A DNA stretch of 64,000 bases from Candidatus Rokuibacteriota bacterium (lineage in GTDB: Bacteria; Methylomirabilota; Methylomirabilia; Rokubacteriales; CSP1-6): positions 1,165 to 65,164 of the forward strand of contig JAHFDK010000011.1 of assembly GCA_023249095.1 (NCBI GenBank). The letters are read 5' to 3'. The translations under genes and the position numbers were made by a program. The notes beneath the pieces are model-generated. The model had not been told where the DNA came from. It searched no databases and saw only the letters and a list, made by a program, of their open reading frames with translations. Positions 21,390 to 35,415 of this stretch are shown here, piece by piece (within the stretch, counting starts at the first letter, position 1; the number at the start of each line of letters is the position of its first letter).

Positions 21390-21482
21390 GTTCTAATTCT
21401 TCCCTTTTTCAAGCTCGCCTCGACGGCGGAGCCATAGTCGTTCTGCTCGCTCGCGTCTGCGTCCTGCTCGACTCCCCGTGGG

Positions 21483-22514
21483 CTACCCCAGGTACGCCCG
21501 GGGGTTATCTCGGCGGAGCGCCGCGAGCTTCTCGTACAGCTCGCGTTCCGCGGGCGCCACATCGCTCGGCATGACGATCTTCACCGCCACCAGCTGATCG
21601 CCCGCGCCGGTGCCCTTGAGACGCGGCATCCCGTAGCCCGGAAGTCTGAATGTGCGTCCGCTCGACGTCGCGGGCGGTACCTTCATCGACACCTTGCCGC
21701 GCAGGGTCGGCACCTCGAGCGTGGTCCCCAGCGCGGCCTCGGGCGCAGTGATCGGCAGGGTCAGATGCACGTCGTCGCCCTTGCGCTCGAGGAACGGGTG
21801 TGACGCCACCGTGACACTCAGGTAGAGGTCGCCGCGCGCTCCCGCCGTGCCGGCGCCCTCGCCGGAGACGCGCACGCGCTGCCCACTCTTCACGCCCGCC
21901 GGTATCTTCACATCGACCTGACGGCGCGCCCGCTGCCAGCCTCCGCCGCCGCACGCGGCGCACGGCTTTCCCTTGACGTGGCCGGAGCCTTGACAGGTTC
22001 CGCAAGGTTCCTCGAGGTCCAGGGCGAATGTCTTCCGCGCGCCGTGGAAGGCCTCGTCGAGCGAGATTTCGACGTTCGCCTGTACATCCCCACCGCGGGA
22101 GCTTTGGTCCCGATCGAAGAGATCTTCGATTCGCATCCCCCCGCCCCGTGGCCCACGTCGCGCCTGCGCCCCCAGGTCGCCGAAGATGGTGCGAAAGAAC
22201 TCAGAAAAGTCCCCGGTGGTTCCGAGGTCATCGCCGTATTCCACTCTGAACCCGCTGCCACGGCCCCCGGGCGGGGACTGGGAATATCCCTTCCAGTCGG
22301 GTCCGAGCGAATCGTAGCGGCGGCGCTTCTCGGGGTCGGAGAGGACCTCGTACGCTTCGCTGATCTCCTTGAAGCGTTCGGTGGCGTCCTTGGTCTTTGC
22401 GACGTCGGGGTGATGCTTTCGCGCGAGTCGTCGATACGCGGACTTGATCGTCTTGTCGTCGGCCTTCCGGTCGACTCCGAGAATCCGATAGTAGTCTTTG
22501 AAATCGACCGCCAT
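21483..22514 (-). CDS. DnaJ-family (CbpA/DnaJ2-like) co-chaperone
   Basis: J domain with HPD, G/F region, only two CxxCxGxG repeats, DnaJ C-terminal domain. Confidence 0.92.
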   Translation of the reverse strand: MAVDFKDYYRILGVDRKADDKTIKSAYRRLARKHHPDVAKTKDATERFKEISEAYEVLSDPEKRRRYDSLGPDWKGYSQSPPGGRGSGFRVEYGDDLGTTGDFSEFFRTIFGDLGAQARRGPRGGGMRIEDLFDRDQSSRGGDVQANVEISLDEAFHGARKTFALDLEEPCGTCQGSGHVKGKPCAACGGGGWQRARRQVDVKIPAGVKSGQRVRVSGEGAGTAGARGDLYLSVTVASHPFLERKGDDVHLTLPITAPEAALGTTLEVPTLRGKVSMKVPPATSSGRTFRLPGYGMPRLKGTGAGDQLVAVKIVMPSDVAPAERELYEKLAALRRDNPRAYLG

Positions 22515-22534
22515 TTTCGACTTATCCTACAAGA

Positions 22535-22543
22535 AGTATAGCA
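22535..22543 (-). promoter_or_regulatory. Extended -10 promoter (TGcTATACT) for the dnaJ-like/clpB genes
   Basis: On the minus strand, 20 nt upstream of ATG 22514, inside an AT-rich intergenic region. Confidence 0.55.
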
Positions 22544-22648
22544 GACGATTTGAGTCTTTCGCGCTAACGTCTAAATCCATACTAACCGACGATTTATTCC
22601 ATGAAAAATCTCAAATTAGAGAGCCTTTTGAGGTACTTCTCGGGCGCT

Positions 22649-24130
22649 TTATCCTCGACCAACACGGAAGGCGACGTAGAGGGACATCGGTCCGCGCTGA
22701 AGCAGGACCGTGAGCGGATCGCCTTCCTTGACGTCACGGGTCAGGCGCTCGAAATCCACCATCGTCCGCACCGTCTGGCTGTTGAGCTGCTTGATCACGT
22801 CGCCGCGCTGGACGCCAGCTTCCGCCGCCGCGCTCCCATCCTCGACGCGGACCACGACGACACCGTCGGTAGACCGGAGGTTGAGTTGCCGCGCGATTTC
22901 GGGTGTTACGGGGCGGACCTCGAGCCCGAGCATCGAGCGAGCGCGGCCGCCCGGCCGCGGCTGCTGGGCCTGGCGCTCGTCGGGGGCTTGGCCAACCTTG
23001 ACCTCGACGGTCTTCTCGCTCTGCTCACGCCAGACCTTGACCTTCGCCGTGCGGTCGGGGGAGGCGAGGCCGACGGCGCGCTGCAGGTCGCCCGGACCTT
23101 CCATCGGGCGTCCCTCGAACTCGAGCAGGATATCGCCAGGCTTGAGACCGCCCTTTGCGGCTGGGCTGTCCGGCACTACTTCGTTGATGAGCACACCCTT
23201 CGGGTCCTTGGCGCCGAACGAGCGAGCCAGCTCGGGGGTAAGCGGCTGGATCGAAATGCCGAGCCACCCACGCGTCACGCGGCCCTTGTCGCGGAGCTCC
23301 GCGTAGATCTTCCGCGCCATGTTCGAGGGGATCGCAAAGCCGATGCCTGAGCCGCCGGCGACGATCGCGGTATTGATCCCGATCACCTCGCCCTGCATGT
23401 TCACCAGCGGCCCCCCGGAGTTGCCCGGATTGATCGCGGCGTCGGTCTGAAGGAAGTCGTCGAACGGGCCCTGGTCGAGCTGCCGCGCCTTGGCGCTGAT
23501 GATGCCGGCCGTGACCGTAGCCTGCAGGCCGAACGGGGAGCCGACGGCGAGCACCCAGTCCCCCACTTGGATCCGGTCGGAGTCACCCAGGCGCGCGTAC
23601 TTGAAGGTGCCTTTCCCGTCGTCGAGCTTGAGGACGGCGAGGTCGGTCTTCTTGTCCACCCCGATGATCTTGGCCTTGTGCTTTCCGCCGTCGAGCGTCA
23701 CCACTTCGATCTCCGTGGCCTTCTCGACCACGTGGGCATTCGTGAGCGCGATCCCGGTGGGATCCACGATGACGCCCGAACCGAGGCTCCGCTGCGGGAT
23801 GCGTTCGGGTACCTCGCCGAAGAAGCGCCGGAAGAACTCCTCCCCGAAGTACTCCTCGAACGGCGTGCGGCCCTGGAGGCCAGCCCCTCGCGAGAAGGTG
23901 TTGATGTTGATCACGGCCGGCTTGATCGCGTCCGCGACCGCGGCGAACGTCCCACCCGGAGGCGGCATCTGCACCGGGAGGATCGGCAGCGGGCTGACAG
24001 GCGCCTGCGCCAGCATCGGCGGGCGCCGGAGCTCCGCGCGGGGCGCCGTGAACGCCCCGAGCGCGACGCCCGCCACCAGGGCGAGTACCAGTGCTCCGAG
24101 AAAAGTCCTTCGCTTGAGCTGCATCGTCAT
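22649..24130 (-). CDS. degP: Do/DegP (HtrA) serine protease with two PDZ domains
   Basis: [20 protein letters not shown] catalytic triad motifs, two PDZ domains, N-terminal signal/TM. Confidence 0.93.
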
Positions 24131-26031
24131 CGCATCTCCTCCATCATGCTTTCGCCGGCCAGCGCCCTGCGGAGTCGCTCCCCCTCGAGCGTCTCCGTCC
24201 GCTTCAGCGCTTGGGCTGCGGAAATCAGGACGGCCTTCTTCGTCGTCAGCATCCCACGGACCCGGTCGTGGGTGCGCTCGAGGATCGCCCGCACTTCCTC
24301 GTCGATCGTCCGAGCGGTCGCCTCGCTGTATTCGCGTTCGCCGCCGATTCCGGCGCCTTTGAGGAAGAGCGACGTGCGCTCGCCGTAGGTCGCGAGCCCC
24401 ACCCGCTCCGACATCCCGTACTTCGTCACCATGAGGCGCGCCACCTCGGTCGCGCGCTCGAGGTCGTTGTGTGCGCCGGTCGAGACCTCGCCGTAGACGA
24501 GCTCCTCGGCGACGCGTCCGCCGAGCAGGACCGCGATTCGATCCTCCAGCTCGCTCCGGGTCATCAGGAAGCGCTCCTCCGTCGGCAGCTGGTAGGTCAT
24601 TCCGAGCGCGGCGATGCCGCGCGGGATGATCGTCACCTTGTGAACGGGGTCGGCGTGGGCGACCGAGGTGGCCACCAGCGCGTGACCCATCTCGTGATGG
24701 GCGACGATATCGCGCTCCTTTTCGGAGAGGACTCGACTCTTCTTTTCGAGTCCCGCGACGACTCGATCGATCGCTTCTTCGAAGTCGGACATCTCGACCG
24801 CGTTCTTCTCCTTGCGCGCCGCGAGCAGCGCCGCCTCGTTGACGATGTTGGCGAGATCGGCGCCCGCGAAACCCGGCGTGCGCGCTGCAATGATGCCGAG
24901 GTCGACGCCCTGCGCCAGGACCACGGCGCGGGCGTGCAGTCTCAGGATTGCCTCGCGGCCCCGGAGATCGGGCTTGTCGACGACGACCTGCCGGTCGAAG
25001 CGGCCCGGGCGCAGGAGCGCCTGGTCGAGCACCTCGGGGCGGTTCGTCGCGGCCATGATGATCACGCCCTTCGAGGAGTCGAAGCCGTCCATCTCAGCCA
25101 GCAGCTGGTTGAGGGTCTGCTCGCGCTCGTCGTGGCCCCCGATGAACCCGGTGCTGCCCGCACGCGACTTGCCGATCGCGTCCAGCTCGTCGATGAAGAT
25201 GATGCACGGGGCCTTGTCCTTGGCCTGTTCGAACAAGTCGCGGACGCGCGCGGCACCAACGCCGACGAACATCTCGACGAACTCGGAGCCGGACAGGGTG
25301 AAGAAGGGCACGTCCGCCTCGCCCGCGACGGCCCGCGCCAGCAGGGTCTTGCCCGTGCCCGGAGGACCCACCACCAGCACGCCCTTGGGAATACGGCCGC
25401 CGAGCCGCTGGTACTTTCTCGGATTTTTGAGGAAGTCGACGATCTCGACGAGCTCGGCCTTCGCCTCGTCGACGCCGGCGACGTCGCCGAACGTCGTTTT
25501 GAGCTCCTTGCGATCGAAGATCTTGTGTTTGGAGCGGCCGAACGAGAGTGCCTGTGTGGGCCCGCCCCCGACCCGCCGCATCAGGACCATCCAGATGGCG
25601 ATCATGACCCCGAGCGGGATGATCCAGCCGAAGAAGAGGTCGCGAACGAAGGTCGACTCGATCTTCCCGGTGAATTCGACCTTGTGCCGCTCGAGCTCGG
25701 CGATGAGCGGCGCCTCCTCCACGCCGGGGATTCGGGTCACCGTGAACACACGTACTTCGGCGGCGTCGGACGTGAGCCACTGGCGGAGGCGGTCACCCGC
25801 CCCGCTCGGCCCGGTGGGGAGCGCATCGGGCTTCGCGATACCCCGGATTTCCCGCTCGGTCAGCGCCACCTTCTCGACCTTGTCGGCGCGCACGAGGTCG
25901 AGGAACCTGGACATCGGGATCTCGACCGTGCGGGGGGCCTGAAGCCAGGACTGCAGTAGCAGCAGGACCATCGCTGCGACCAGCACGTAGGCCAGCGAGA
26001 ACTGGATGCGCTGGTTGAGCCGCGGCTTCAT
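24127..26031 (-). CDS. ftsH: ATP-dependent zinc metalloprotease FtsH
   Basis: Two TM helices, [23 protein letters not shown] zinc motif. Confidence 0.96.
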
Positions 26032-26190: not shown

Positions 26191-28092
26191 TTGCGAGTTT
26201 CTGGTCTGGGGGTCGAGGTGAGGGAGTGCCATGCGGTTCGCCGGGGCGCCTGGGCGGCTCTGGCGGTGGTGGCGCTCCTTATGATGCTGCCGACGCTTCC
26301 GGCCCTGGCCCAGGACGCGGCCCGGGAGCCCGCGTACCGGGCCTTTCCCCTGATCGGCTCACGGCTCGCCGTGTGGGCGGTCGCCCAGCTCCACCTGAAC
26401 TTCGCGGCGTTCATCCTCGGCGTACCGATCTTCGCCGTGATCATCGAGATCATCGGCTGGCGGACGGGTGACGCCCGGTACGACTGGCTCTCGCACGAGT
26501 TCGTCAAGCTCACCTTCGCGGCGTTCTCGACCACGGCGCTGCTGGGCGCCTTCCTCCTGTTCCTCTTCGTCGGCTACTATCCGAAGTTTTGGACGTATAT
26601 GACCTCGATCTTTTTCCCCACCTACTGGATCTACGCGCTCCTCTTCTTCGCGGAGACCTTCACGGTCTACGTCTGGTACTACGGGTGGGACTGGCTCAGC
26701 GGCCCCCGGAAGGGGATCCACGTCGCCCTCGGCGTCCTCAGCAATCTCTTCGGTACCGCAATACTGTTGGTGGCGAACTCGTGGGTCACCTTCATGATAT
26801 CGCCCGCGGGGATCGACGAGTCGGGCGCCCTGAAGGGATCGGTGTGGGCGGCGATCAACAACTTCACATGGATGCCGATCAACATCCACCGGCTGATCGC
26901 CAACATCGTGTTCGGCGGCACGATCGCGGCGGCCTACGCGGCGTTCCGCTTCCTTGGCGCCAAGACCGACGAGGAGCGCGCCCGCTACGACTGGATGGGC
27001 TACATCGGCAACTTCGTGGCGCTGTCCGCCTTCATCGTCCTGCCGTTCGCGGGCTATTACCTCGGCCGTGAGATCTACGCGTTCAACCAGACCATGGGCA
27101 TCACAATGATGGGCGGCTTCATGTCGTGGCTCTGGATCATCCAGGCGATCCTGATCGGGGTGCTCTTCATCGGCTCGAACTACTACCTCTGGCTCGGCAT
27201 GGAGCGTATCCCCGGCTCGGAGCGGTACCGGCGCTACGTCCCGATGATGATCGGCATCCTCGCCCTCGGCTTCATGGTCTGGGCGACGCCGCGCTCCATG
27301 GTCATCACGCTCGACGAGGCGCGGGCCATGGGCGGCACGCATCATCCGGTGCTCGGCTTCCTGGGTGTCATGTCGGCGAAGAACACCGCGGTGAACATGA
27401 TGATTCTCACCACGTTCGTCTCGTTCGTCCTCTATCGGCGCGCGAACCGGATCTCGATCAAACCGTGGGTCGGGATCGGGATGGTGGTCCAGTGGGCTGC
27501 CCTCGGACTCGCCGCGGCGGTCGTCGTCTTCTACGGCGTGTACGGGTACTTCGTCGAATCGCTGGTGAGAATAGGCTTCTCCGTGTATCAGGTGCTGGCC
27601 GTTCTCGCATCGATCGTCATCGTCATGGCGATCGATATCCCGATGTTCAGGGGCGCCCGCTCCACCGGGACAATTCGCTGGGGGACGATCGCCCCGCGCT
27701 CTCAGTACGTGCTCATCCTCCTGGCGGTGACGTTCACCTGGCTGATGGGTCTGATGGGCTTCGCCCGCTCGGGAATCCGCCAGCACTGGCACGTCTACGG
27801 CGTCATGCGGGATAACTCGGTCGACGCGGTGACGCCCGCGATCGGGTACGCGGCCAACATGATCACCACGGTCACGATCGTGTTCTTCGCCCTGGTGATG
27901 TTCATGTTCTGGCTCGGTGGTCTCAGCGAGAAGGGCAAGGCCGGAGAGTCGGGCCACGCCTCCACGCCGGTCTTTGCGGGCGGGAGCGACGCGGACCCGA
28001 CGGAGTCGGGACGAGGGCGGAGCCGCGCGGGAGGAAGCGAGGCCTCGTCCGCGGGGGAGTCGAGAGGGGGGCGGAGCCCCCTTCTCCCATAG
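26191..28092 (+). CDS. Cytochrome bd-like oxidase subunit I homologue (CydA-like, atypical)
   Basis: AQLHLNFAAFILG and NIHRL His motifs, HEFVKL, many TM helices, C-terminal RSGIRQHWH in place of EYGRQPW. Start uncertain. Confidence 0.8.
   Translation: MRVSGLGVEVRECHAVRRGAWAALAVVALLMMLPTLPALAQDAAREPAYRAFPLIGSRLAVWAVAQLHLNFAAFILGVPIFAVIIEIIGWRTGDARYDWLSHEFVKLTFAAFSTTALLGAFLLFLFVGYYPKFWTYMTSIFFPTYWIYALLFFAETFTVYVWYYGWDWLSGPRKGIHVALGVLSNLFGTAILLVANSWVTFMISPAGIDESGALKGSVWAAINNFTWMPINIHRLIANIVFGGTIAAAYAAFRFLGAKTDEERARYDWMGYIGNFVALSAFIVLPFAGYYLGREIYAFNQTMGITMMGGFMSWLWIIQAILIGVLFIGSNYYLWLGMERIPGSERYRRYVPMMIGILALGFMVWATPRSMVITLDEARAMGGTHHPVLGFLGVMSAKNTAVNMMILTTFVSFVLYRRANRISIKPWVGIGMVVQWAALGLAAAVVVFYGVYGYFVESLVRIGFSVYQVLAVLASIVIVMAIDIPMFRGARSTGTIRWGTIAPRSQYVLILLAVTFTWLMGLMGFARSGIRQHWHVYGVMRDNSVDAVTPAIGYAANMITTVTIVFFALVMFMFWLGGLSEKGKAGESGHASTPVFAGGSDADPTESGRGRSRAGGSEASSAGESRGGRSPLLP
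28052..28087 (+). repeat. REP-like hairpin repeat, copy 1
   Basis: CGGGGGAGTCGAGAGGGGGGCGGAGCCCCCTTCTCC with a 10-bp stem (28062-28071/28077-28086). Matches the copy at 49952 apart from that copy's insertion. Confidence 0.7.
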
Positions 28093-28093
28093 C

Positions 28094-28891
28094 GTGCGTC
28101 CCCCCGTCGGCGTCAAGGTCGGTGCGTTCGCGCTCGCCGTGATGGGCACCTACACGTACTACGCCAACTCGATTCCCCAGATACAGTCGAAGCCGCCGGC
28201 CGAGCTGTCGCTCGAGGGCGGAAACGTCACACCGGCCCAGCTCGTGAAGGCCGGCGAGGAGATCTTCAAGACGAAGGGAACGTGCGAGATCTGCCACCGG
28301 ATCGGCCAGAAGGGCACCCGTGCGCCCGACCTCGCCGGGGTCGGGGGTCGAGCCGGCAAGGTCAAGGCCGGCCTGAGCGGCAAGCAGTACATCATCGAGT
28401 CGCTGCTCCAGCCGGGCGCCTACCTCGTCGAGGGCTACCCGAACATCATGCCCCAGGCCGACAAGCCGCCGATCGCGCTGAACCGCTCCGAGGTCTGGGC
28501 GCTCACGGCGTTCCTCGAGTCCCTCGGCGGCGCCGTCGACGTCACGCTGGACGACATTCCGAAGACGGCGGGCGCCCCCGCGGGCGGCGGGGCGGTGGCC
28601 GAGCTGAAGCTGCCGGGCGACCCGAAGGCCGGCGAGGTGATCTTCACCGGCAAGGGCGCTTGTATCGCCTGCCACAAGGCGGGGAAGATCGGTGCCTCAC
28701 CGGTCGGCCCGGATCTCTCGCAGATCGCGAAGATCCAGACGCCGGACTACGTGATGCGGAAGATCCTGGATCCGGCCGGCGCGGGCACGGTGGCGGGCTT
28801 TCCCAAGGGTGTGATGCCCCCGATGTTCGGCCAGACGCTGACGGCGAAGGAGTTCGTCGATCTCGTGGCCTTCTTGATGACGCTGAAGTGA
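28094..28891 (+). CDS. Membrane-anchored diheme cytochrome c
   Basis: N-terminal TM, CEICH and CIACH, distal Met candidates (NIMP, GVMP). GTG 28094 lies 1 nt after the previous stop. Confidence 0.88.
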   Translation: MRPPVGVKVGAFALAVMGTYTYYANSIPQIQSKPPAELSLEGGNVTPAQLVKAGEEIFKTKGTCEICHRIGQKGTRAPDLAGVGGRAGKVKAGLSGKQYIIESLLQPGAYLVEGYPNIMPQADKPPIALNRSEVWALTAFLESLGGAVDVTLDDIPKTAGAPAGGGAVAELKLPGDPKAGEVIFTGKGACIACHKAGKIGASPVGPDLSQIAKIQTPDYVMRKILDPAGAGTVAGFPKGVMPPMFGQTLTAKEFVDLVAFLMTLK

Positions 28892-28895
28892 GCCG

Positions 28896-29648
28896 ATGAG
28901 CTTCTTGCGGTCGCGCTTCGTCCAGGCCGTCCTCGTGCTGGTCATCGCCTTCGTCGTCCTCCGGTTCGGTATCCAGCCGCCGGCGCCGTGGAGCGTCCTG
29001 ACCCTCTACATGTCGATCGTGCTCCTCGCGGTGCTCGTGTTCGTGTCCTCGGACTCCGATTCGTGGCGCGAGTTCGTGCGGCCGATCCGCGCGACGCTGA
29101 TCAGTCCCGACAAGCGCCGCGCACGGCTCGGGCTTCTGATCGCCCTGCCGCTCCTTTTCGGTTACTACGCCTACACGCAGGCCGCCGCCAAGCCGCAGGC
29201 GCCGCCGGAGTTGCGCGCTGTCCACCCCGCTCCGCCGGCGTCCATGCCGTTCCGCGGCAAGGAGATCCAGATCACGGGGCTGGACAACCCGCTCCGGAAG
29301 GACCAGGCGACCTTCAAGAAGCACGTCGCGGCCGGCGCGGAGATCTACATTCGCAACTGCCTGTACTGCCACGGCGACAACCTCGACGGAAAGGGCCACT
29401 TCGCGTACGGCTTCAACCCGCCGCCCGCGAACTTCCAGGACCCCGGAACGATCGCCATGCTGCAGGAGGCGTACCTCTTCTGGCGCATCGCGAAGGGCGG
29501 GCCCGGGCTTCCGAAAGAGTCGACACCCTGGAACTCGGTCATGCCCGCCTGGGAGGATCGACTGACCGAGGGCCAGATCTGGCAGGTCATCGTGTATCTC
29601 TACGACGCGACGGGGCAGCAGCCGCGGCGATGGGAGGAATCGCATTGA
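28896..29648 (+). CDS. Membrane-bound monoheme cytochrome c
   Basis: Three N-terminal TM segments, CLYCH, SVMPAW. Confidence 0.88.
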   Translation: MSFLRSRFVQAVLVLVIAFVVLRFGIQPPAPWSVLTLYMSIVLLAVLVFVSSDSDSWREFVRPIRATLISPDKRRARLGLLIALPLLFGYYAYTQAAAKPQAPPELRAVHPAPPASMPFRGKEIQITGLDNPLRKDQATFKKHVAAGAEIYIRNCLYCHGDNLDGKGHFAYGFNPPPANFQDPGTIAMLQEAYLFWRIAKGGPGLPKESTPWNSVMPAWEDRLTEGQIWQVIVYLYDATGQQPRRWEESH

Positions 29649-31102
29649 TCCCCTCGCTCACCGTCCTCGCGGCGGCTGGACTCATCGCGCTTTCTCTCAG
29701 CGCGGCACCGTCGCCGGTCGCGGCGCAGGCGGGGGACGCGGCGGCGGGGGAGGCCGTGTACGAGAGGAAGTGCGCGGGCTGTCACGGTGACAAGGGGGAT
29801 GGCAAGGGGCCGGCCGCCGAGCTGCTCGCCCCGAAGCCCCGCGACTTCACCGCGGGCCTCTACAAGGTTCGGACGACGGCGAACAAGGTCCCGACGGACC
29901 AGGATATCTTCCGGATCATCACGGACGGCATGCCCGGAACGTCCATGCCGGCGTGGGCGGTGCTCCCGGAAAAGGACCGGTGGAACCTCGTCGCGTATAT
30001 CAAGGCGTTTGCAGCGGAGAAGTTCAAGGAGGGCCCGAAGAAGCTGGAGCTGCCGAAAGACGTCGCTTCGTCGCCGGAGTCGATCAAGCGCGGCAAAGAG
30101 ATGTTCGAGGCGATCGAGTGCCACAAGTGTCATGGCACCGAGGGACGGGCCGACGGCCCCTCGCGCGCCGAGCTGAAGGACGAGTGGAGCAACCCGATCG
30201 CGCCCGCGAACCTCGCCAAGCCGTGGACCTTCCGCGGGGGCGCGGGCCGGACCGAGATCGCCACCCGGCTCGCCAACGGCGTCCTCGGCACCCCGATGCC
30301 CGCCTTTCTTGACAGTGTCGAGAAGCCCGAGGACATCTGGCACCTGACGAACTTCATTCTTTCGCTCGGCGCCGCGTCGCCGCGCTATGCCACGCTCGTC
30401 ACGGTCACCGCGGTGTCCGACGCGATCCCCGACGACCCGAACGCCGACTACTGGACGAAGGTCGCGCCGGGCAACATCCCGCTGATGGGGCAGGTGATCG
30501 TCGACCCGCGGAACTTCAATCCGGCGATCGATCTCGTGTCGATCCGCGCCGTCTACAACGACAGGGAGATCGCCTTTCACTTGACGTGGGACGACCCGAC
30601 CCAGTCCGCCGACGATCCGGCGAAGAAGCTCTACGCCGACGCGATCTCGCTCCAATTTCCTCCGCAAATCACCTCCGGTCCCGAGCGGCCGTACTTCCTG
30701 ATGGGCGACGGCTCGGACGCCGTCTACCTCCTGCGCTGGGAGAACGGCAAGGGCGTGAGCGAGGCGACGGCGAACGGCCCGACGAAGATCGCCCCCCTCG
30801 CGGGCGCCGAGGCGACGGGCAAGGCCGTGTACACCAACGGCCAGTATCGCGTCGTGATCAAGCGCCCGCTGGGGTCCAAGGACGCGGCGAGCCCGGCATT
30901 CAGTCCCGCGGTCTTCACGCCGGTCGCGTTCCAGGCCTGGGACGGCGGCGCCGGGGAGGCCGGCACGAAGATGTCGTTGACCTCATGGTACTATTTGCGG
31001 CTGGAGGAGCCGCAGTCGAACCGACGTTTCGTCATTCCTCCGGTCGTCGCAATCCTCACACTGGCGGTGATGCTGCTCGTGGTGCGAGTTGCGAACAGGT
31101 GA
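29645..31102 (+). CDS. Diheme cytochrome c fused to an ethylbenzene-dehydrogenase gamma-like (EB_dh/DOMON) heme domain, C-terminal TM anchor
   Basis: TTG start overlaps the previous TGA. CAGCH, CHKCH, KPRDFT, then HLTWDDPT, DAISLQFP, PYFLMGDG, AFQAWDG...KMSLTSW. Confidence 0.85.
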   Translation: MIPSLTVLAAAGLIALSLSAAPSPVAAQAGDAAAGEAVYERKCAGCHGDKGDGKGPAAELLAPKPRDFTAGLYKVRTTANKVPTDQDIFRIITDGMPGTSMPAWAVLPEKDRWNLVAYIKAFAAEKFKEGPKKLELPKDVASSPESIKRGKEMFEAIECHKCHGTEGRADGPSRAELKDEWSNPIAPANLAKPWTFRGGAGRTEIATRLANGVLGTPMPAFLDSVEKPEDIWHLTNFILSLGAASPRYATLVTVTAVSDAIPDDPNADYWTKVAPGNIPLMGQVIVDPRNFNPAIDLVSIRAVYNDREIAFHLTWDDPTQSADDPAKKLYADAISLQFPPQITSGPERPYFLMGDGSDAVYLLRWENGKGVSEATANGPTKIAPLAGAEATGKAVYTNGQYRVVIKRPLGSKDAASPAFSPAVFTPVAFQAWDGGAGEAGTKMSLTSWYYLRLEEPQSNRRFVIPPVVAILTLAVMLLVVRVANR

Positions 31103-31133
31103 GCACAACTCGAATTCAGGAGGAACCAGGGCA

Positions 31134-31832
31134 ATGCGTAAGGTAATCGGAGCGCTTCTGGCGATCGCGCTCGTCGTGGGCGTCGCCGCCGTCGCCCACC
31201 GCCCGGGGCCGGCCGGGGCGCAGGGAGGCGGGACCATCGAGGCCGCGGTGACGTACGCCGGCGCGGCGGTGGTCGAGAAGCTCAAGGTGAACAAGGACAC
31301 GGAGAAGTGCGGGACCGAGGCGCTGATCGAGAAGGTCGTGGTGGGCACCAACAAGGGGCTGGCGAACGCCGTCGTCTCCGTCCCGGGCGCCAAGGGCGCG
31401 CCGAAGGCGGTGAAGGCGACCGTCGACCAGCACGGCTGCAAGTTCGTCCCCCGCGTGGTCGCGATGACGCCGGGCGAGGTCGAGCTCAAGAACTCCGACG
31501 ACATCCTGCACAACATCCATACGTACTCGACGGCGAATCCGTCCATCAACAAGGCGCAGCCGAAGTTCAAGAAGGTGATGACCGAGAAGTTCGAGAAGCC
31601 CGAGATCATCAAGCTCACCTGCGACGTGCACAGCTGGATGCTCGGGTGGGTCGCCGTCATGCCGAACCCGTTCTTCGGCGTCACCGACGCGAATGGCGTG
31701 ACCAAGATCGAGAACGTGCCGCCCGGCAAGTACAACGTCGAGGTGTGGCACGAGACGCTCGGCAAGCAGACGAAAGAGGTCGAGATCAAGGCCGGGCAGA
31801 CGGCGAAAGTCGCGATCGAGATGAAAAAGTAA
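31134..31832 (+). CDS. Secreted carboxypeptidase-regulatory-like/cupredoxin-like protein 1
   Basis: Signal peptide, LHNIH, CDVHSWM, NVPPGKYNVEVWHE. Confidence 0.75.
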   Translation: MRKVIGALLAIALVVGVAAVAHRPGPAGAQGGGTIEAAVTYAGAAVVEKLKVNKDTEKCGTEALIEKVVVGTNKGLANAVVSVPGAKGAPKAVKATVDQHGCKFVPRVVAMTPGEVELKNSDDILHNIHTYSTANPSINKAQPKFKKVMTEKFEKPEIIKLTCDVHSWMLGWVAVMPNPFFGVTDANGVTKIENVPPGKYNVEVWHETLGKQTKEVEIKAGQTAKVAIEMKK

Positions 31833-31853
31833 GAGCCAGGAGGGTCGGCGCGC

Positions 31854-32606
31854 ATGCTTGACTGGTGGCTGCCGGAAAACGTTTCGACTTACGGCCAGGA
31901 GATCGACTGGCTCTTCCACCTCATCTACTACATCACCGGCGCGACCTTCATCCTGGTCTTTGTCACGATGCTGGTATTCCTCGTGATGTACCGGGATCGC
32001 CCCGGCCGGCGGGCTCGCTACACCCATGGCAACACAACGCTCGAGATCGTCTGGACGGTGGTGCCGGCGCTGATCCTGGTCATCCTCACGATCCTCAGCG
32101 TCCCCGCGTGGTCGAAGATCAAGATGACCATGCCGGAGACGGACTTCGTCGTGCAGGTGACGGCCAAGCAGTTCAACTGGCAGGTGACCTACCCGGGCCC
32201 CGACGGCCAGTTCGGTACGGCCGACGACAAGACGCTCTTGGACGAGATGCACGTCCCGGTCAACAAGGTCGTCCGGGTCATCCTGAAATCCCAGGACGTC
32301 ATTCACAGCTTCTTCGTCCCCCAGTTCCGGATGAAGCAGGACGCGGTCCCCGGCCGTGAGATCCGGCAATGGTTCGAGGTGGTCAAGCCCGGCAGATACG
32401 AGTGGCCGTGCGCGGAGCTGTGCGGCTTCGGACACTCGGGAATGCGGGGGTGGATCTATGTCCACACCCCCGACGAGTACGGGAAGTGGGCGGCGCAAAA
32501 CCTGACGGCGGAGGCTGCGCCGGCCGCCGCCGAGCCGAAGCCGGAGGGCACGAAGGCCGAGACGACCAAGGCCGAGCCTAAGAAAGAGGGGAAAGCCAAG
32601 AAATGA
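31854..32606 (+). CDS. ctaC: Cytochrome c oxidase subunit II
   Basis: Two TM helices, DVIHSF and CAELCGFGHSGM CuA ligands. No fused cytochrome c. Confidence 0.96.
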   Translation: MLDWWLPENVSTYGQEIDWLFHLIYYITGATFILVFVTMLVFLVMYRDRPGRRARYTHGNTTLEIVWTVVPALILVILTILSVPAWSKIKMTMPETDFVVQVTAKQFNWQVTYPGPDGQFGTADDKTLLDEMHVPVNKVVRVILKSQDVIHSFFVPQFRMKQDAVPGREIRQWFEVVKPGRYEWPCAELCGFGHSGMRGWIYVHTPDEYGKWAAQNLTAEAAPAAAEPKPEGTKAETTKAEPKKEGKAKK

Positions 32607-34357
32607 GCGCCACCAGCGCGACCGCGCACGCGCACGTCGAGCACGGCGGCCACCACGAGCTCGGCTTCGTGCGGACCTACATCTTCTCCACGGACCACAA
32701 GATGATCGCCCGGCAGTTCCTGTTCCTGGGGCTCTTCATGATGATCCTCGGCGGGCTGCTCGCGCTCGTCGTCCGCTGGCAGCTCGCCTGGCCCGAGACG
32801 GCCGTGCCCGGCCTCGGCGGCATCCTCACGGAGACGGGCGGCATCCTGGAGCCCAGCACCTACAACATGGCGTTCACGATGCACGCCACGATCATGATCT
32901 TCTTCGTGATCATGCCGATCCTCGCGGGCTGCTTCGGGAATTTCTGCATCCCGCTGATGATCGGGGCGCGCGACATGGCGTTTCCGTTTCTGAACATGCT
33001 TTCATTCTGGGTGACGGGCAGCGCGGGCCTCATCATGCTCTCCGGCTTCTTCGTGGAGGGCGGCCACGCCGCCGCCGGCTGGACCTCCTACGCCCCGCTC
33101 TCGGCGGTTCCGGCGTACACGGGCGTGAACTGGGGCCAGAACATCTGGTGCATCAGCCTGTTCATCATGGGCGTCGGCTCGATGATGGGATCGATCAACT
33201 ACATCACGACGATCATCAACATGCGGGCGCCGGGCATGCAGCTCTTTCGGATGCCGCTCGTGGTGTGGTCGCTCTTCATCACGGCGATCCTGCTCCTCCT
33301 GGCCCTGCCGGTGCTCACGTCGGGCGTCGCCATGCTGCTGTTCGACCGCACGCTCGGCACGAGCTGGTTCAGGCCCTCGGGTGGCGGCGAGCCGCTCCTG
33401 TGGCAGCACCTCTTCTGGTACTTCGGCCACCCGGAGGTGTACATCCTGATCCTCCCGGCGATGGGCATCGCCTCCGAGATCCTGCCGGTCTTCTGCCGCA
33501 AGCCGATCTTCGGCTACCACGCGATGGCGTTCTCGATGATCGCGATCGCGTTCCTGTCCTGGATCGTCTACGGCCACCACATGTTCGTCAGCGGCATGAG
33601 CCCGGCCCTCGGAATGGCCTTCACGGTCACGACGATGGTCATCGCGGTGCCCTCGGCCATCAAGACGTTCAACTGGCTGGGCACCCTGTGGGGCGCCCGG
33701 ATCCAGTTCACCGTCCCGATGCTGAATGCGCTCGCGTTCGTCTCGATGTTCGTCATCGGCGGGCTCTCGGGGATCTTCATGGCCTCGACCCCGGTGGACA
33801 TCTACATCCAGGACACGTACTTCATCGTGGCGCACATCCACTACGTCGTCTTCGGCGGCTCGATCTTCGGCGCGTTCGCCGCGATCTACTACTGGTTCCC
33901 GAAGATGTTCGGCCGGATGACGAACACGGTCCTCGGCCACCTGCACTTCTGGCCGACGTTCGTGTTCTTCAACCTGACCTTCTTCCCGATGCACATCATC
34001 GGGGTCGGCGGCCAGATGCGCCGTATCTACAACCCGATGCAGTACGAGTTCCTCCAGCACCAGCAGCCCTGGAACGTGTTCATCACCGTGAGCGCGCTCG
34101 CGCTCGGCATCTCCCAGATCCCGTTCGTCGTCAACTTCTTCTGGTCGCTGTTCGCCGGCACGAGGGCGCCGCTGAACCCATGGAACGCCACCACGCTCGA
34201 GTGGACGGCGCCATCACCGCCCCCGCACCTGAACTGGGGCCCGACGCTGCCGACGGTGTATCGAGGCCCCTACGAGTACAGCTCGCCGGAGTCGAAGGAA
34301 GACTTCTTGCCGCAATCCACGCCCCCGGTGGGGGCCGCCGGAGCGCGGCGGCACTGA
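32603..34357 (+). CDS. ctaD: Cytochrome c oxidase subunit I, type A1
   Basis: TMHAT, WYFGHPEVY (A1 Glu), GHHMF, AHIHYV, D-channel ARDMAFP, K-channel SAIKTF. Confidence 0.97.
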   Translation: MSATSATAHAHVEHGGHHELGFVRTYIFSTDHKMIARQFLFLGLFMMILGGLLALVVRWQLAWPETAVPGLGGILTETGGILEPSTYNMAFTMHATIMIFFVIMPILAGCFGNFCIPLMIGARDMAFPFLNMLSFWVTGSAGLIMLSGFFVEGGHAAAGWTSYAPLSAVPAYTGVNWGQNIWCISLFIMGVGSMMGSINYITTIINMRAPGMQLFRMPLVVWSLFITAILLLLALPVLTSGVAMLLFDRTLGTSWFRPSGGGEPLLWQHLFWYFGHPEVYILILPAMGIASEILPVFCRKPIFGYHAMAFSMIAIAFLSWIVYGHHMFVSGMSPALGMAFTVTTMVIAVPSAIKTFNWLGTLWGARIQFTVPMLNALAFVSMFVIGGLSGIFMASTPVDIYIQDTYFIVAHIHYVVFGGSIFGAFAAIYYWFPKMFGRMTNTVLGHLHFWPTFVFFNLTFFPMHIIGVGGQMRRIYNPMQYEFLQHQQPWNVFITVSALALGISQIPFVVNFFWSLFAGTRAPLNPWNATTLEWTAPSPPPHLNWGPTLPTVYRGPYEYSSPESKEDFLPQSTPPVGAAGARRH

Positions 34358-34374
34358 TCGAGACGGGGAGATCG

Positions 34375-35415
34375 GTGGCGTACCGTCTGGCGCTCGCGAC
34401 CCTGGCCGCGACGGGCGTGCTCATCCTTCTCGGGGGGCTGGTCACGAACACGGGCGCGGCCCTCGCGGTGCCCGACTGGCCGAGCACGTTCGGCTACAAC
34501 ATGGTCCTCTTCCCCTGGTCGCGCATGGTGGGCGGCATCTTCTACGAGCACAGCCACCGGCTGATGGGCGCGCTCGTCGGCCTGCTGACCCTGGCGCTGA
34601 CCGCGCTACTGTGGCGCGAGGGCCGACTGCGCCGGCTCGGCCTCGTTGCGGTGGCCGTCGTCCTCGCCCAGGGCGTGCTCGGCGGGCTACGTGTCGTGCT
34701 TCTGGAGAACACGCTGGCCATCGTCCACGGCAGCCTGGCCCAGGCCTTCTTCGCCCTGCTCGCGGCGATCGCTCTGCTGACGGCTCCGCGCGGGCGCGTG
34801 GCCGGGGCCCGGGTCGAGCCAGCGTTGAAAGGCTTGACCGTGCTCGCAGCTGCGCTCGTGTATGCGCAGATCGTGTTCGGCGCGCTCCTGACTCACGCCG
34901 GACGCATCGACCTTCACCTGGCGGGTGCCGTCCTCGTGTTCGCCATCGTGCCGATTGTCACGGCGCCGCTGCGCCGGACCGGAGACGCGGTAGCGGCGCC
35001 GGTCTCGCGGCTGTTGCTCGTTCTGCTCGGCGCCCAGCTTCTCCTCGGCGTCGGCAGCTTTCTGGCGAGGTTCTCACCGTTCTGGATCCCCGGTGAGCAG
35101 CTCGCCGGGGTCGCCCTGCCAGTAGCGCATCGATTGGTCGGCAGCCTCATCCTGGCCGCCATCGTGATTCTGTCAGTCCGGGTCCATACTGTAAACGCCG
35201 AGCCGGAACGGGTTGATCAGGCGCCACGGAGCCACGCCGCATCTGTCTCGGGCCACCCGCGGTCCGACGCGGCCTCACGGACCCCGCTCCAACAAACCCA
35301 CGCCGCATCGGTCTCAGGCCACCCTCGATCCGAGCCGGCCGACGAACGGAGCCACGCCGCATCGGTCTCAGGCCACCCTCGATCCGAGCCGGCCTCACGG
35401 ACCCCGCTACAATGA
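34375..35415 (+). CDS. ctaA: Heme A synthase (CtaA/COX15 family) with a repetitive His-containing C-terminal tail
   Basis: AVPDWP, EHSHRL, VHGSLAQ, HLAG, AHRL. GTG 34375 follows GGGGAG. Confidence 0.85.
   Translation: MAYRLALATLAATGVLILLGGLVTNTGAALAVPDWPSTFGYNMVLFPWSRMVGGIFYEHSHRLMGALVGLLTLALTALLWREGRLRRLGLVAVAVVLAQGVLGGLRVVLLENTLAIVHGSLAQAFFALLAAIALLTAPRGRVAGARVEPALKGLTVLAAALVYAQIVFGALLTHAGRIDLHLAGAVLVFAIVPIVTAPLRRTGDAVAAPVSRLLLVLLGAQLLLGVGSFLARFSPFWIPGEQLAGVALPVAHRLVGSLILAAIVILSVRVHTVNAEPERVDQAPRSHAASVSGHPRSDAASRTPLQQTHAASVSGHPRSEPADERSHAASVSGHPRSEPASRTPLQ
35226..35412 (+). repeat. Three-copy in-frame direct repeat at the ctaA 3' end
   Basis: ~43-bp core CCACGCCGCATCGGTCTCAGGCCACCCTCGATCCGAGCCGGCC at 35232, 35298 and 35352 (periods 66 and 54 nt), encoding HAASVSGHPRS x3. 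Confidence 0.92.

What the first reader, a model, noticed from the sequence alone, without database searches (positions are those of the whole stretch)
26191..28092. CydA homologue with a remodelled active-site signature
Seen: His motifs at 26392 (QLHLNF) and 26887 (NIHRL), extra His clusters (GGTHHP, RQHWH), and no recognisable KLAAxE Q-loop motif. Manual alignment of MGFARSGIRQHW to E. coli WFVAEYGRQPW puts Ser at the Glu445 heme-ligand position and His at Pro450. Known: His19, His186, Met393 and Glu445 ligate the three hemes of CydA. Inference: a different cofactor set (possibly lacking one high-spin heme or binding Cu), so not a standard bd oxidase.
Basis: partly seen in the sequence, partly recalled or inferred. 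Interest (0 to 1): 0.7.

Follow-up and report, generated by a model that had tools for sequence, protein, structure and literature searches.

The report
Cytochrome bd-like (OR-N2) haem subunit
This gene encodes a 14-helix relative of the cytochrome bd oxidase subunit CydA that has lost the quinol-binding loop and one haem ligand; it belongs to the already described but never purified "OR-N2 / bd-like oxidase" family, and here it sits in one operon with three c-type cytochromes and an aa3 oxidase.

Summary
ORF 26191-28092 (+) is a real, environmentally transcribed 633-aa CydA homologue (Pfam PF01654; AlphaFold pLDDT 81; the ten best Foldseek hits are all CydA chains). His68 and His233 match E. 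coli His19 and His186. There is no Q-loop. Ser527 sits where Glu445 should be, within a conserved R-S-x-x-R-x-x-W-H motif.

It is not new. The residue pattern, the 14 helices and the operon (several cytochromes c plus an EbdC/NxrC-like subunit) match the OR-N2 subfamily of Murali, Gennis and Hemp (2021), the "bd-like oxidases" known from Nitrospira, Nitrospina and anammox since 2010-2013. That paper already lists Ser/Ala at Glu445 for OR-N2 and OR-N in Methylomirabilota (Rokubacteria), the source phylum here.

Of the "extra" histidines, only His385 and His534 are family-conserved (22/26 each).

The core four-gene module was present in 66/66 related loci. In Rokubacteria (18/19) and Gemmatimonadota (27/27) it is followed directly by coxBA.

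Function is inferred, not shown. The likeliest role is a cytochrome-c-linked haem b subunit reducing O2. The main rival is a quinone/cytochrome c electron-transfer module feeding aa3. Copper binding and haem count cannot be tested in silico.

The parts
26191..28092 (+). CydA-like 'bd-like oxidase' subunit, OR-N2 type. It is 633 aa, with an N-terminal signal or anchor helix plus 13 TM helices and a disordered Gly/Ser/Arg-rich cytoplasmic tail (aa 585-633). The start codon is uncertain: TTG at 26191, while many relatives start about 30 aa later.
   Evidence: ORF. Pfam PF01654 at 57 bits. AlphaFold pLDDT 81.4, pTM 0.81, 14 helices. The Foldseek top 10 are all CydA chains, TMt 0.50-0.57. There are 6444 homologues, the closest being Rokubacteria at 85-96% identity. 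Metatranscriptome contigs cover it.
26392..26394 (+). His68 codon, the equivalent of E. coli CydA His19 (axial ligand of the active-site haem), at the periplasmic start of TM1.
   Evidence: hhalign and HMMER alignments. Kept in 24/26 relatives.
26632..26655 (+). Tyr148 to Glu155 on TM3. Tyr148 replaces Glu99 and Glu155 equals Glu107 of the proton channel, with the one-residue deletion typical of non-qOR1 families.
   Evidence: hhalign. Tyr in 23/26 and Glu in 20/26 relatives. Matches OR-N2 Y183/E190 in the published table.
26719..26721 (+). His177 codon, the likely equivalent of the proton-channel residue His126.
   Evidence: Kept in 25/26 relatives. The spacing to His233 (56) is identical to OR-N2 H213-H269. 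hhalign places it 4 residues off, so the equivalence is by conservation and spacing.
26887..26889 (+). His233 codon (in the W-x3-N-x-H-R motif), the equivalent of His186, a ligand of the low-spin haem b558.
   Evidence: Kept in 24/26 relatives.
27085..27123 (+). Met-rich periplasmic segment NQTMGITMMGGFM (aa 299-311). It lies where the N-terminal, quinol-binding part of the Q-loop (KLAAIEAEW) lies in E. coli.
   Evidence: hhalign register. Met307 in 21/26, Met302 in 16/26 and Met306 in 13/26 relatives. It is followed by two extra TM helices (aa 312-364) in the AlphaFold model.
27331..27372 (+). Periplasmic loop GGTHHPVLGFLGVM (aa 381-394). It contains the conserved His385-Pro386 and Met394, the candidate second ligand of the low-spin haem (Met393 equivalent) at the start of TM9.
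   Evidence: His385 in 22/26 and Met394 in 18/26 relatives; His384 in only 5/26. The spacing His233-Met394-Asn398 is identical to OR-N2 H269-M430-N434. Pairwise sequence support is absent.
27766..27792 (+). R526-S527-G-I-R530-Q-H532-W533-H534 at the periplasmic end of TM12. Ser527 takes the Glu445 position. Arg530 and Trp533 correspond to Arg448 and Trp451. His534 is a family-conserved extra His.
   Evidence: Profile alignments to three PDB chains. Ser in 22/26, Arg530 in 23/26, Trp533 in 23/26, His534 in 22/26 and His532 in 8/26 relatives. The published OR-N2 positions S563/W569 have the same spacing from the His186 equivalent.
28094..28891 (+). Membrane-anchored dihaem cytochrome c (CEICH, CIACH), a homologue of Kuenenia Kustd1711 from the anammox nxr gene cluster.
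   Evidence: Pfam Cytochrom_C. The GTG start lies 2 nt after the bd-like stop codon. PDB 7ZS0/7ZS1/7ZS2 match at E about 1e-36, and these entries are Kustd1711 with haems near +350 mV (PMC11791136).
28896..29648 (+). Membrane-anchored monohaem cytochrome c (CLYCH).
   Evidence: Pfam Cytochrome_CBB3 and Cytochrom_C. Motif.
29630..31102 (+). Secreted dihaem cytochrome c (CAGCH, CHKCH) fused to an EbdC/NxrC-like haem b domain and a C-terminal TM anchor (the 'alternative NxrC' type).
   Evidence: Pfam EB_dh, E 8.5e-21. TIGR03477, E 1.9e-30. PDB 6h5l_B at E 2e-47 and Kuenenia NxrC 7b04_C at E 5e-8.
31134..31832 (+). Secreted 232-aa protein with a C-terminal CarboxypepD_reg-like domain and an invariant H126-N ... 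C163-x2-H166-x2-M169 motif. It is a putative blue-copper (cupredoxin-like) electron carrier, and the fold is unconfirmed.
   Evidence: Pfam. The motif is present in 46/46 syntenic homologues, and the ligand columns are invariant in a 20-sequence alignment reaching down to 30% identity. The single-sequence AlphaFold model failed.
31854..34357 (+). coxB (31854-32606, CuA motif CAELCGFGHSGM) and coxA (32603-34357): an A-family aa3-type cytochrome c oxidase. ctaA, ctaB and two coxC genes follow, up to about 37975.
   Evidence: NCBIfam CoxB at 173.8 bits and CtaD_CoxA at 630.7 bits. Pfam COX15, UbiA and COX3. Sequence read.

Best explanation
**Shown.** The gene encodes an OR-N2-type member of the cytochrome bd (CydA) superfamily, the 'bd-like oxidase' of the Nitrospira, Nitrospina and anammox literature.
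- It keeps the CydA core: His68 = His19, Glu155 = Glu107, His177 = His126 and His233 = His186.
- A Met393 candidate (Met394) is present.
- The Q-loop is replaced by a Met-rich periplasmic segment plus two extra helices.
- Glu99 is replaced by Tyr148 and Glu445 by Ser527.
- It is the first gene of a tightly packed operon that appears to be co-transcribed. The operon also encodes a Kustd1711-like dihaem cytochrome c, a monohaem cytochrome c and a dihaem-c/NxrC-like haem b subunit. In this lineage a putative blue-copper protein and an aa3 cytochrome c oxidase follow.

**Inferred.**
- The four proteins form one membrane complex. The c-type haems (about +350 mV in the characterised Kuenenia homologue), not quinol, exchange electrons with a low-spin haem b held by His233/Met394 on the periplasmic side.
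- Electrons then pass to a high-spin haem on His68.
- That haem is supplied with cytoplasmic protons through the retained Glu155/His177 pathway, and it most likely reduces O2. This makes the complex a cytochrome c-dependent bd-type oxygen reductase, as proposed for OR-N.
- The Glu445 haem pocket is probably retained, because Arg530 and Trp533 are conserved, but with a different or absent axial ligand (His534 is the candidate).

I put the identity at about 0.9. The O2-reducing role is about an even bet.
For: **Identity**
- Pfam PF01654, a profile against PDB CydA chains, hhalign at 95.9%, an AlphaFold model with 14 helices, and a Foldseek top 10 made up only of CydA chains.
- The OR-N2 signature is met, and the spacing from the His186 equivalent onward is exact: H233-M394-N398-S527-W533 against the reference H269-M430-N434-S563-W569.

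**Complex formation**
- The four-gene core is present in 66/66 related loci with enough flank, across at least five phyla.
- Gene junctions are a 1-nt gap, a 4-nt gap and a 19-nt overlap.
- Three of the 25 aligned representatives carry a cytochrome c domain fused to the C-terminus.
- Metatranscriptome contigs span the junctions.

**O2 reduction**
- The His19 ligand and the Glu107/His126 proton-channel residues are conserved. Murali et al. associate the proton-channel glutamates (E99/E107) with most 'a'-type subfamilies and their absence with 'b'-type ones.
- A few cultivated Nitrospirales genomes encode no oxygen reductase other than OR-N (PMC12342949).
- The orientation puts every candidate ligand on the periplasmic side.
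Against: - No OR-N enzyme has been purified or solved. Papers from 2024-2025 say so explicitly, no OR-N structure is in the PDB, and no later study turned up.
- Homologous modules occur in strictly anaerobic anammox bacteria (PMC3578206), where O2 reduction is unlikely.
- Here the module lies directly upstream of a complete aa3 oxidase in 18/19 Rokubacteria and 27/27 Gemmatimonadota loci. That is odd for a second terminal oxidase.
- Glu99 and Glu445, both important in E. coli, are replaced.
- The residue-level mapping of the C-terminal third is not statistically supported by sequence alone.
- I had no model coordinates, so no distances between candidate ligands could be measured.
Confidence: 0.5

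Rival explanations
1. **Electron-transfer module, not an oxidase.** In this reading the bd-like subunit with its three cytochromes links the quinone pool to periplasmic c-type haems and copper carriers.
- In Rokubacteria and Gemmatimonadota it would run forward, acting like a complex III or alternative complex III that feeds the co-encoded aa3 oxidase.
- In nitrite oxidisers and anammox bacteria it would run in reverse, from the nitrite oxidoreductase (NXR) to quinone.
- The retained cytoplasmic proton path would then serve quinone or quinol chemistry.
For: - The operon fusion with coxBA-ctaAB-coxC occurs in two phyla: 18/19 and 27/27 loci.
- This resembles the known pairing of ACIII operons with a downstream oxygen reductase (PMC12342949).
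- A putative blue-copper carrier is encoded between the module and coxB.
- CoxB has a CuA site but no fused cytochrome c, so it needs a donor.
- The module is present in anaerobic anammox bacteria, and a quinone-linked reverse-electron-transport role has been proposed in print (PMC3578206; PMC6606698).
Against: - All residues that bind quinol in canonical CydA are absent, and no new quinone site can be pointed to.
- The module also occurs without cox genes: 0/6 Acidobacteriota loci and 0/5 other loci have coxBA downstream.
- I could not check whether the host genomes lack bc1 or ACIII.
Confidence: 0.3
2. **Haem-copper hybrid.** The extra conserved periplasmic residues would bind a copper ion next to the His68 haem, or in place of the Glu445 haem. 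The candidates are His385, His534 and the Met-rich stretches Met302/306/307 and Met519/522. This would give a bd-fold enzyme with a haem-Cu active site, which is the first reader's Cu idea and the 2010 proposal for Nitrospira NIDE0901.
For: - His385 and His534 are each conserved in 22/26 relatives, and conserved Met clusters also lie on the periplasmic side.
- The Cu-site proposal is cited in PMC6606698.
Against: - Only two conserved His residues are free of a presumed haem role, whereas CuB sites use three.
- No known Cu-site motif was matched.
- Both His residues are equally well explained as haem ligands or as contacts with the docking cytochrome.
- Nothing here measures metal content.
Confidence: 0.1
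3. **Ordinary quinol-oxidising cytochrome bd subunit I**, as most database entries name it ('cytochrome bd ubiquinol oxidase subunit I').
For: Source annotations of close homologues, and the Pfam family name.
Against: - There is no Q-loop, Glu445 or Glu99, and no cydB neighbour.
- The protein has 13-14 helices rather than 9.
- PDB sequence similarity is confined to the first ~250 residues, i.e. the first five to six helices.
- No NCBIfam model matches.
Confidence: 0.03

Closest known systems
OR-N2 subfamily of the cytochrome bd superfamily (Murali, Gennis & Hemp 2021, bioRxiv 10.1101/2021.01.16.426971), also called NIDE0901-like 'bd-like oxidases' of Nitrospira
   Same: - 14 TM helices and no Q-loop.
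- His19, His126 and His186 kept.
- Tyr at Glu99, Glu107 kept, Met/Asn at the Met393 position, Ser at Glu445 and Trp six residues later.
- Spacing identical to the reference from the His186 equivalent onward.
- Operon with several cytochromes c and an EbdC-like subunit.
- A Nitrospira/Manganitrophaceae protein aligns over aa 53-576 at 37% identity, E 3e-106.
   Different: - The host is a Rokubacteria/Methylomirabilota bacterium.
- No OR-N1 paralogue is nearby.
- No nxrAB is in the window.
- The operon runs straight into an aa3 oxidase cluster. I did not find this arrangement described in the papers I could read.
The conserved 'bd-like_3 / two membrane cytochromes c / alt_NxrC_2' cluster of Nitrospira moscoviensis, with its counterparts in Nitrospina gracilis and the Kuenenia nxr gene cluster (PMC6606698, PMC3578206)
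   Same: - The same four kinds of subunit.
- The dihaem c is a homologue of Kustd1711 (E 1e-36).
- The fourth subunit carries two haem c motifs, an NxrC-like domain (7b04_C, E 5e-8) and a TM anchor.
- A blue-copper-type protein is encoded alongside.
   Different: Those clusters sit with the nitrite oxidoreductase genes and are discussed as an NXR anchor or a reverse-electron-flow device. Here the partner is an aa3 oxidase and no molybdoenzyme is in view.
Canonical CydA of E. coli cytochrome bd-I (PDB 6RKO/6RX4) and Geobacillus bd (5DOQ)
   Same: - The fold (Foldseek probability 1.0, TMt 0.50-0.57).
- TM1-5 sequence homology with the His19, Glu37 (here Glu86), Glu107 and His186 equivalents.
- The R-x-x-W motif after the penultimate helix.
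   Different: - No K252/E257 Q-loop.
- Glu99 to Tyr and Glu445 to Ser.
- Four additional helices plus an N-terminal signal or anchor helix.
- No CydB or CydX.
- The partners are c-type cytochromes.
Alternative complex III with a downstream oxygen reductase (functional analogy only, for the rival explanation)
   Same: Both are multi-haem-c membrane modules encoded directly upstream of an oxygen reductase (for ACIII: PMC12342949). Weak sequence hits of the cytochrome c subunits to ACIII cytochrome subunits were seen (6f0k_E, 6btm_A).
   Different: There is no NrfD-like or Fe-S subunit. The membrane core here is a CydA fold that binds haem b.

Membership tests
Cytochrome bd superfamily (CydA, Pfam PF01654) | Score above the Pfam gathering threshold | tested here: met
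   57.1 bits against a 26.2 cut-off, aa 57-575.
Cytochrome bd superfamily (CydA, Pfam PF01654) | Conserved N-terminal helices carrying the His19 ligand (the core architecture of Murali et al.) | tested here: met
   His68 aligns to His19 and is kept in 24/26 relatives.
Cytochrome bd superfamily (CydA, Pfam PF01654) | CydA fold | tested here: met
   AlphaFold pLDDT 81, pTM 0.81. The Foldseek top 10 are all CydA chains, probability 1.0.
Canonical quinol-oxidising cytochrome bd (qOR1-4a) | Periplasmic Q-loop with the quinol-binding Lys252/Glu257 (KLAAxE) | tested here: not met
   No KLAA string. The region is a 13-residue Met-rich loop plus two TM helices.
Canonical quinol-oxidising cytochrome bd (qOR1-4a) | Glu445 haem ligand and Glu99 | tested here: not met
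   Ser527 (22/26 Ser) and Tyr148 (23/26 Tyr) occupy these positions. The Ser527 mapping rests on weak alignments plus motif spacing.
Canonical quinol-oxidising cytochrome bd (qOR1-4a) | His186/Met393 ligation of low-spin haem b558 | tested here: inconclusive
   His233 = His186 is firm. Met394 is the positional candidate (18/26) but without significant sequence alignment. His385 is an alternative.
Canonical quinol-oxidising cytochrome bd (qOR1-4a) | Adjacent cydB (subunit II) gene; nine TM helices | tested here: not met
   The downstream genes are cytochromes c. No second CydA-like gene is in the window. The model has 14 helices.
OR-N2 subfamily | Published residue signature (H19, Y at E99, E107, H126, H186, M/N at M393, S/A at E445, W six residues after the E445-position residue — the published table's 'W441' column) and 14 TM helices | tested here: met
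   H68, Y148, E155, H177, H233, M394/N398, S527 and W533. The spacing from H233 onward is identical to the reference TKS59798.1. 14 helices.
OR-N2 subfamily | Operon with multiple cytochromes c and an EbdC (type II DMSO reductase gamma) homologue | tested here: met
   Conserved in 66/66 related loci. Definition.
OR-N2 subfamily | Placement in the OR-N2 clade with the authors' tree or HMM classifier | not tested
The only indirect evidence is 37% identity, full length, to a Nitrospira/Manganitrophaceae bd-like protein.
OR-C family | CxxCH haem c motif(s) within the CydA-like subunit; about 8 TM helices | tested here: not met
   No CxxCH and a single Cys. 14 helices. Some relatives do carry a C-terminal cytochrome c fusion.
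Haem-copper-type active site (CuB-like) | Three conserved His positioned next to the high-spin haem, and bound Cu | not testable with these tools
   Only His385 and His534 are conserved and unassigned. No model coordinates and no metal analysis were available.

The most novel reading that the evidence does not exclude
In Rokubacteria and Gemmatimonadota the OR-N2 cytochrome b/c module may not be a second oxidase. It could be a dedicated electron-input device hard-wired to the aa3 oxidase encoded in the same operon. That would be a third, CydA-fold-based kind of quinol (or periplasmic donor):cytochrome c oxidoreductase alongside bc1 and ACIII, possibly forming a supercomplex through the blue-copper-like protein. 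The same module would run in reverse in nitrite oxidisers and anammox bacteria.
Probability: 0.2. Interest if true: 0.8.

Novelty: new member of a known kind. Interest (0 to 1): 0.35.

Why it matters
OR-N enzymes are thought to be the main or only terminal oxidases of Nitrospira and Nitrospina, which are key nitrifiers. Yet none has been purified, and their haem and metal content, electron donor and even their reaction remain unknown.

This window adds no new family. It does show that the same four-subunit module is widespread in abundant soil and sediment phyla: at least 587 species-level genomes in one scan. In two of those phyla it is fixed in an operon with an aa3 oxidase.

That context gives a concrete, testable alternative to the 'terminal oxidase' label. 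It also offers non-nitrifier sources for biochemical and structural work.

The practical point for annotation is that 'cytochrome bd ubiquinol oxidase subunit I' is the wrong name for these genes.

Tried and rejected
- **NCBIfam:** no model matched the protein.
- **phmmer against PDB with the single sequence:** only weak N-terminal hits, so a profile was needed.
- **The search for related loci with the 26-sequence alignment:** failed for lack of a conserved stretch. It was repeated with a closer 10-sequence alignment.
- **Pairwise local alignment of the loop-TM9 and TM12-13 segments to E. coli CydA:** at noise level, with 250/300 and 135/300 shuffles reaching the score. I therefore do not claim sequence-level proof for Met394 = Met393 or Ser527 = Glu445.
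- **Model coordinates:** not exposed, so no ligand-to-ligand distances or haem-pocket geometry could be computed.
- **Cupredoxin fold of the 31134-31832 protein:**
  - Pfam found no cupredoxin, even at E up to 10.
  - PDB sequence hits were spurious repeat proteins.
  - The single-sequence model was useless, pLDDT 39.
  - Only the invariant H...C-x2-H-x2-M motif stands.
- **Literature:**
  - The 2010 Nitrospira genome paper (tried as PMC2922143) is not held, so the original Cu-site argument is cited second-hand.
  - The Kuenenia NXR structure paper does not mention the bd-like protein.
  - Searches for Rokubacteria or Gemmatimonadota bd-like oxidases, and for any OR-N biochemistry after 2022, found nothing relevant.
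- **Rejected readings:**
  - OR-C membership, because there is no CxxCH.
  - A CydAA' pair in this operon, because there is no paralogue.
  - Linkage to NXR in this window, because no molybdoenzyme was found among the ORFs scanned.
  - A spurious high-GC ORF, given the homologues, the fold and the transcripts.
Full report
**1. What is at the coordinates**

ORF 26191..28092 on the + strand encodes 633 aa.
His68 (QLHLNF) is at 26392 and His233 (NIHRL) at 26887. GGTHHP begins at aa 381 and RQHWH at aa 530. No KLAA or GRQPW string is present, and the protein has one Cys and no CxxCH.
- It matches Pfam Cyt_bd_oxida_I at 57.1 bits (cut-off 26.2) over aa 57-575. No NCBIfam model matches.
- As a single sequence it finds only the first ~230 residues of two CydA chains in the PDB, at E 3e-4 and 0.011.
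- The gene is real. It has 6444 homologues at E <= 1e-5, the closest being 85-96% identical proteins of Candidatus Rokubacteria/Rokuibacteriota MAGs.
- There are 1107 representatives at the 50%-cluster level.
- The AlphaFold model is confident: pLDDT 81.4, pTM 0.81.
- Metatranscriptome assemblies from sediment and soil contain contigs that are 90-99% identical.

**2. Anatomy**

The model has 14 helices: an N-terminal signal or anchor helix (aa 13-39, followed by A-L-A/Q-D) and 13 transmembrane helices. The last 49 residues are disordered.

The ten best Foldseek hits in the PDB are all CydA subunits from E. coli bd-I and bd-II, mycobacteria, Geobacillus and Corynebacterium (probability 1.0, TMt 0.50-0.57). 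CydB chains come next, and nothing resembling an OR-N structure appears.

A profile of 26 diverse relatives hits CydA chains at E 1.5e-16 to 8e-6. hhalign against E. coli CydA gives 95.9% probability. These alignments place:
- His68 on His19;
- Glu86 on Glu37;
- Tyr148 on Glu99, with a one-residue deletion before Glu155 = Glu107;
- His233 on His186.

After helix 6, E. coli has the Q-loop (KLAAIEAEW...). This protein has instead a 13-residue Met-rich loop (NQTMGITMMGGFM) and two additional helices.

Counting from the periplasmic N-terminus, as in CydA, puts the following on the periplasmic side: His68, His233, the Met-rich loop, the GGTHHP loop, Met394, Ser527 and the RQHWH loop. His177 and Glu155 lie toward the cytoplasm. 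Loop K+R density is 8 in 45 residues inside against 7 in 106 outside.

**3. Which residues are conserved in the family**

The counts below are from 26 sequences with 28-57% identity to the window protein in the MAFFT alignment.

| Residue | Conserved in |
|---|---|
| His68 | 24 |
| Glu86 | 24 |
| Tyr148 | 23 |
| Glu155 | 20 |
| His177 | 25 |
| Trp227 | 25 |
| Asn231 | 24 |
| His233 | 24 |
| Arg234 | 25 |
| Met307 | 21 |
| Thr366 | 24 |
| Pro367 | 25 |
| Glu376 | 24 |
| His385 | 22 |
| Pro386 | 22 |
| Met394 | 18 |
| Arg526 | 24 |
| Ser527 | 22 |
| Arg530 | 23 |
| Trp533 | 23 |
| His534 | 22 |

His384 (5/26) and His532 (8/26) are not conserved.

The position equivalent to Glu445 is Ser in 22 sequences, His in 2 and Glu in 1.

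Those second-domain alignments are not significant by themselves, and a shuffle test on the pairwise alignment is at noise level. The equivalence therefore rests on three things:
- the shared topology (the end of the penultimate helix);
- the identical x3/x6 spacing of the R and W;
- the literature.

**4. It is the published OR-N2 subfamily**

Murali, Gennis and Hemp (bioRxiv 10.1101/2021.01.16.426971) split the bd superfamily into qOR, OR-C and OR-N. [quoted passage not shown]

Their Supplementary Table 6 gives these positions for OR-N2: H99, Y183 (for E99), E190 (E107), H213 (H126), H269 (H186), N434/M430 (M393), S563 (S/A, for E445) and W569. The window protein has H68, Y148, E155, H177, H233, M394/N398, S527 and W533. 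The intervals from the His186 equivalent onward are identical (161, 165, 294, 300).

OR-N1 differs: it has Gly at E107 and a different spacing. OR-C requires CxxCH in the subunit, which is absent here.

Their phylum table already records OR-N in Methylomirabilota, Gemmatimonadota, Acidobacteriota and Myxococcota.

Earlier genome papers describe the same proteins as 'bd-like oxidases': 14 helices, the haem b ligands kept, membrane helices replacing the Q-loop and all quinol-binding residues missing (PMC3578206). One Nitrospira copy was proposed to carry a Cu site (PMC6606698).

A cluster containing Nitrospira sp. and Manganitrophaceae proteins aligns with the window protein over aa 53-576 (37% identity, E 3e-106).

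**5. Surroundings**

The genes are tightly packed on the + strand.
- A dihaem cytochrome c starts 2 nt after the bd-like stop codon (28094-28891).
- A monohaem cytochrome c with N-terminal helices follows (28896-29648).
- Next is a secreted dihaem cytochrome c fused to an EB_dh/NxrC-like haem b domain with a C-terminal anchor (29630-31102).

The first cytochrome is a homologue of Kuenenia Kustd1711 (PDB 7ZS0, E 1.4e-36). Kustd1711 is the dihaem protein of the anammox nxr gene cluster, with haems near +350 mV (PMC11791136). The third cytochrome matches PDB 6h5l_B (E 2e-47) and Kuenenia NxrC 7b04_C (E 5e-8).

This is the same set as the 'bd-like_3 / two membrane-bound cytochromes c / alt_NxrC_2' cluster. 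That cluster is among the 40 most highly transcribed genes in Nitrospira moscoviensis and is conserved in Nitrospina and anammox bacteria.

Downstream come:
- a 232-aa secreted protein (31134-31832);
- coxB with a CuA motif, and coxA;
- ctaA, ctaB and two coxC genes.

No molybdoenzyme and no second CydA-like or CydB gene was found in the window.

**6. Conservation of the context**

A scan of one genome per species found at least 587 genomes with a close relative. The best 80 loci come from Rokubacteria/Methylomirabilota, Gemmatimonadota, Acidobacteriota, Myxococcota, Thermodesulfobacteriota, Rhodothermaceae and Spirochaetaceae MAGs.

The three cytochrome genes follow the bd-like gene in 66/66 loci with enough downstream sequence.

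| Group | Loci with coxB-coxA following |
|---|---|
| Rokubacteria | 18/19 |
| Gemmatimonadota | 27/27 |
| Acidobacteriota | 0/6 |
| Other phyla | 0/5 |

Three of the 25 aligned representatives carry the cytochrome c as a C-terminal fusion. This is either a genuine fusion or a merged gene call.

Metatranscriptome contigs span four junctions: cytochrome/cytochrome, cytochrome/NxrC-like, NxrC-like/232-aa protein, and 232-aa protein/coxB/coxA. This is consistent with one transcript. However, contigs cannot exclude DNA carry-over and come from close relatives rather than this exact genome.

**7. How it most likely works**

*Shown:* a CydA-fold haem protein without a quinol site, genetically locked to three c-type cytochrome subunits.

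*Inferred:*
- The four proteins form a membrane complex.
- High-potential c haems hand electrons to a low-spin haem b on His233, with Met394 or possibly His385 as the second ligand.
- Electrons pass on to a high-spin haem on His68.
- That haem receives cytoplasmic protons through the retained Glu155/His177 path.
- Retention of the proton path and the His19 ligand fits a proton-consuming reduction at that haem. The published view is O2 reduction with cytochrome c as donor. A few cultivated Nitrospirales genomes encode no other oxygen reductase.
- Because Arg530 and Trp533 are conserved around Ser527, I think the third haem pocket is more likely kept, with His534 or water as ligand, than lost. 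This is a guess.

*Main rival:* the complex is an electron-transfer module between quinone and cytochrome c or copper carriers. Three points favour it:
- the fixed fusion to an aa3 operon in two phyla;
- the carrier-like 232-aa protein;
- the presence of the module in anaerobic anammox bacteria.

Against it, no quinone site is visible.

The Cu hypothesis has only two free conserved His residues to work with. None of these ideas can be settled without protein chemistry. Recent papers confirm that the family is still uncharacterised.

**8. Verdict**

The feature is, however, a member of a described subfamily in a phylum where that family was already recorded.

What may be new is modest. The universal four-gene core extends well outside nitrifiers, and the core is fused to an aa3 operon in Rokubacteria and Gemmatimonadota. 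Interest is therefore moderate to low for the finding as stated. It would be higher only if the module turns out to be an electron-input device for aa3.

Noticed in passing
window 31134-31832 (+); paralogue at 38318-39472 (+): A secreted 232-aa protein lies between the NxrC-like cytochrome and coxB. Pfam sees only a C-terminal CarboxypepD_reg-like domain. However, H126-N127 ... C163-x2-H166-x2-M169 is invariant in a 20-sequence alignment, and the C-x2-H-x2-M string is present in 46/46 syntenic homologues down to 30% identity. From memory, this resembles an amicyanin-type blue-copper loop. It may be the electron carrier between the module and CuA. A 32%-identical paralogue follows the cox cluster.
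   Followed up: partly
window 26191-37975 and loci L002-L081: The bd-like/cytochrome module is fused to a complete aa3 oxidase cluster (coxB, coxA, ctaA, ctaB, two coxC genes) in 18/19 Rokubacteria and 27/27 Gemmatimonadota loci. It is not fused in Acidobacteriota (0/6) or other phyla (0/5). I did not find this arrangement described in the papers I could read.
   Followed up: yes
window 35232-35408: A 54-bp tandem repeat (2.9 copies, 74% matches) sits at the 3' end of the ctaA reading frame. It encodes repeated HAASVSGHPRS-like peptides just before ctaB (35412).
   Followed up: no
window 39498-44303 (+): Three unusual genes follow the cox cluster directly. The first combines universal stress protein, rubredoxin-like and three PCP_red domains (39498-41405). 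The second is a radical SAM/SPASM protein with a PCP_red domain (41555-43021). The third is an Mrp/NUBPL-type Fe-S carrier ATPase (43074-44303). They might be a cofactor-maturation set, but their function was not examined.
   Followed up: no
L082 8001-9914 (Nitrospira sp./Manganitrophaceae contig): The Nitrospirota relative P0271 (637 aa, 37% identity) keeps the full residue signature. It stands alone, downstream of a NuoF-like gene (Complex1_51K/NADH_4Fe-4S), with no cytochrome c or NxrC-like neighbours. The family is therefore not always part of the four-gene module.
   Followed up: partly
window 27945-28092 (aa 585-633 of the bd-like protein): This is a Gly/Ser/Arg-rich, disordered C-terminal tail (pLDDT below 50) that varies in length among close relatives. 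Transcript and metagenome contigs break or diverge here. Long alternative ORFs overlap it on both strands, which is typical of 67% GC DNA.
   Followed up: partly
window 18792-26031 (-): A protein-quality-control block (clpB, dnaJ-like, htrA/degP-like, ftsH) is transcribed divergently from the bd-like operon. The ftsH adjacency is conserved in the closest Rokubacteria loci (80-98% identity) but not beyond.
   Followed up: partly
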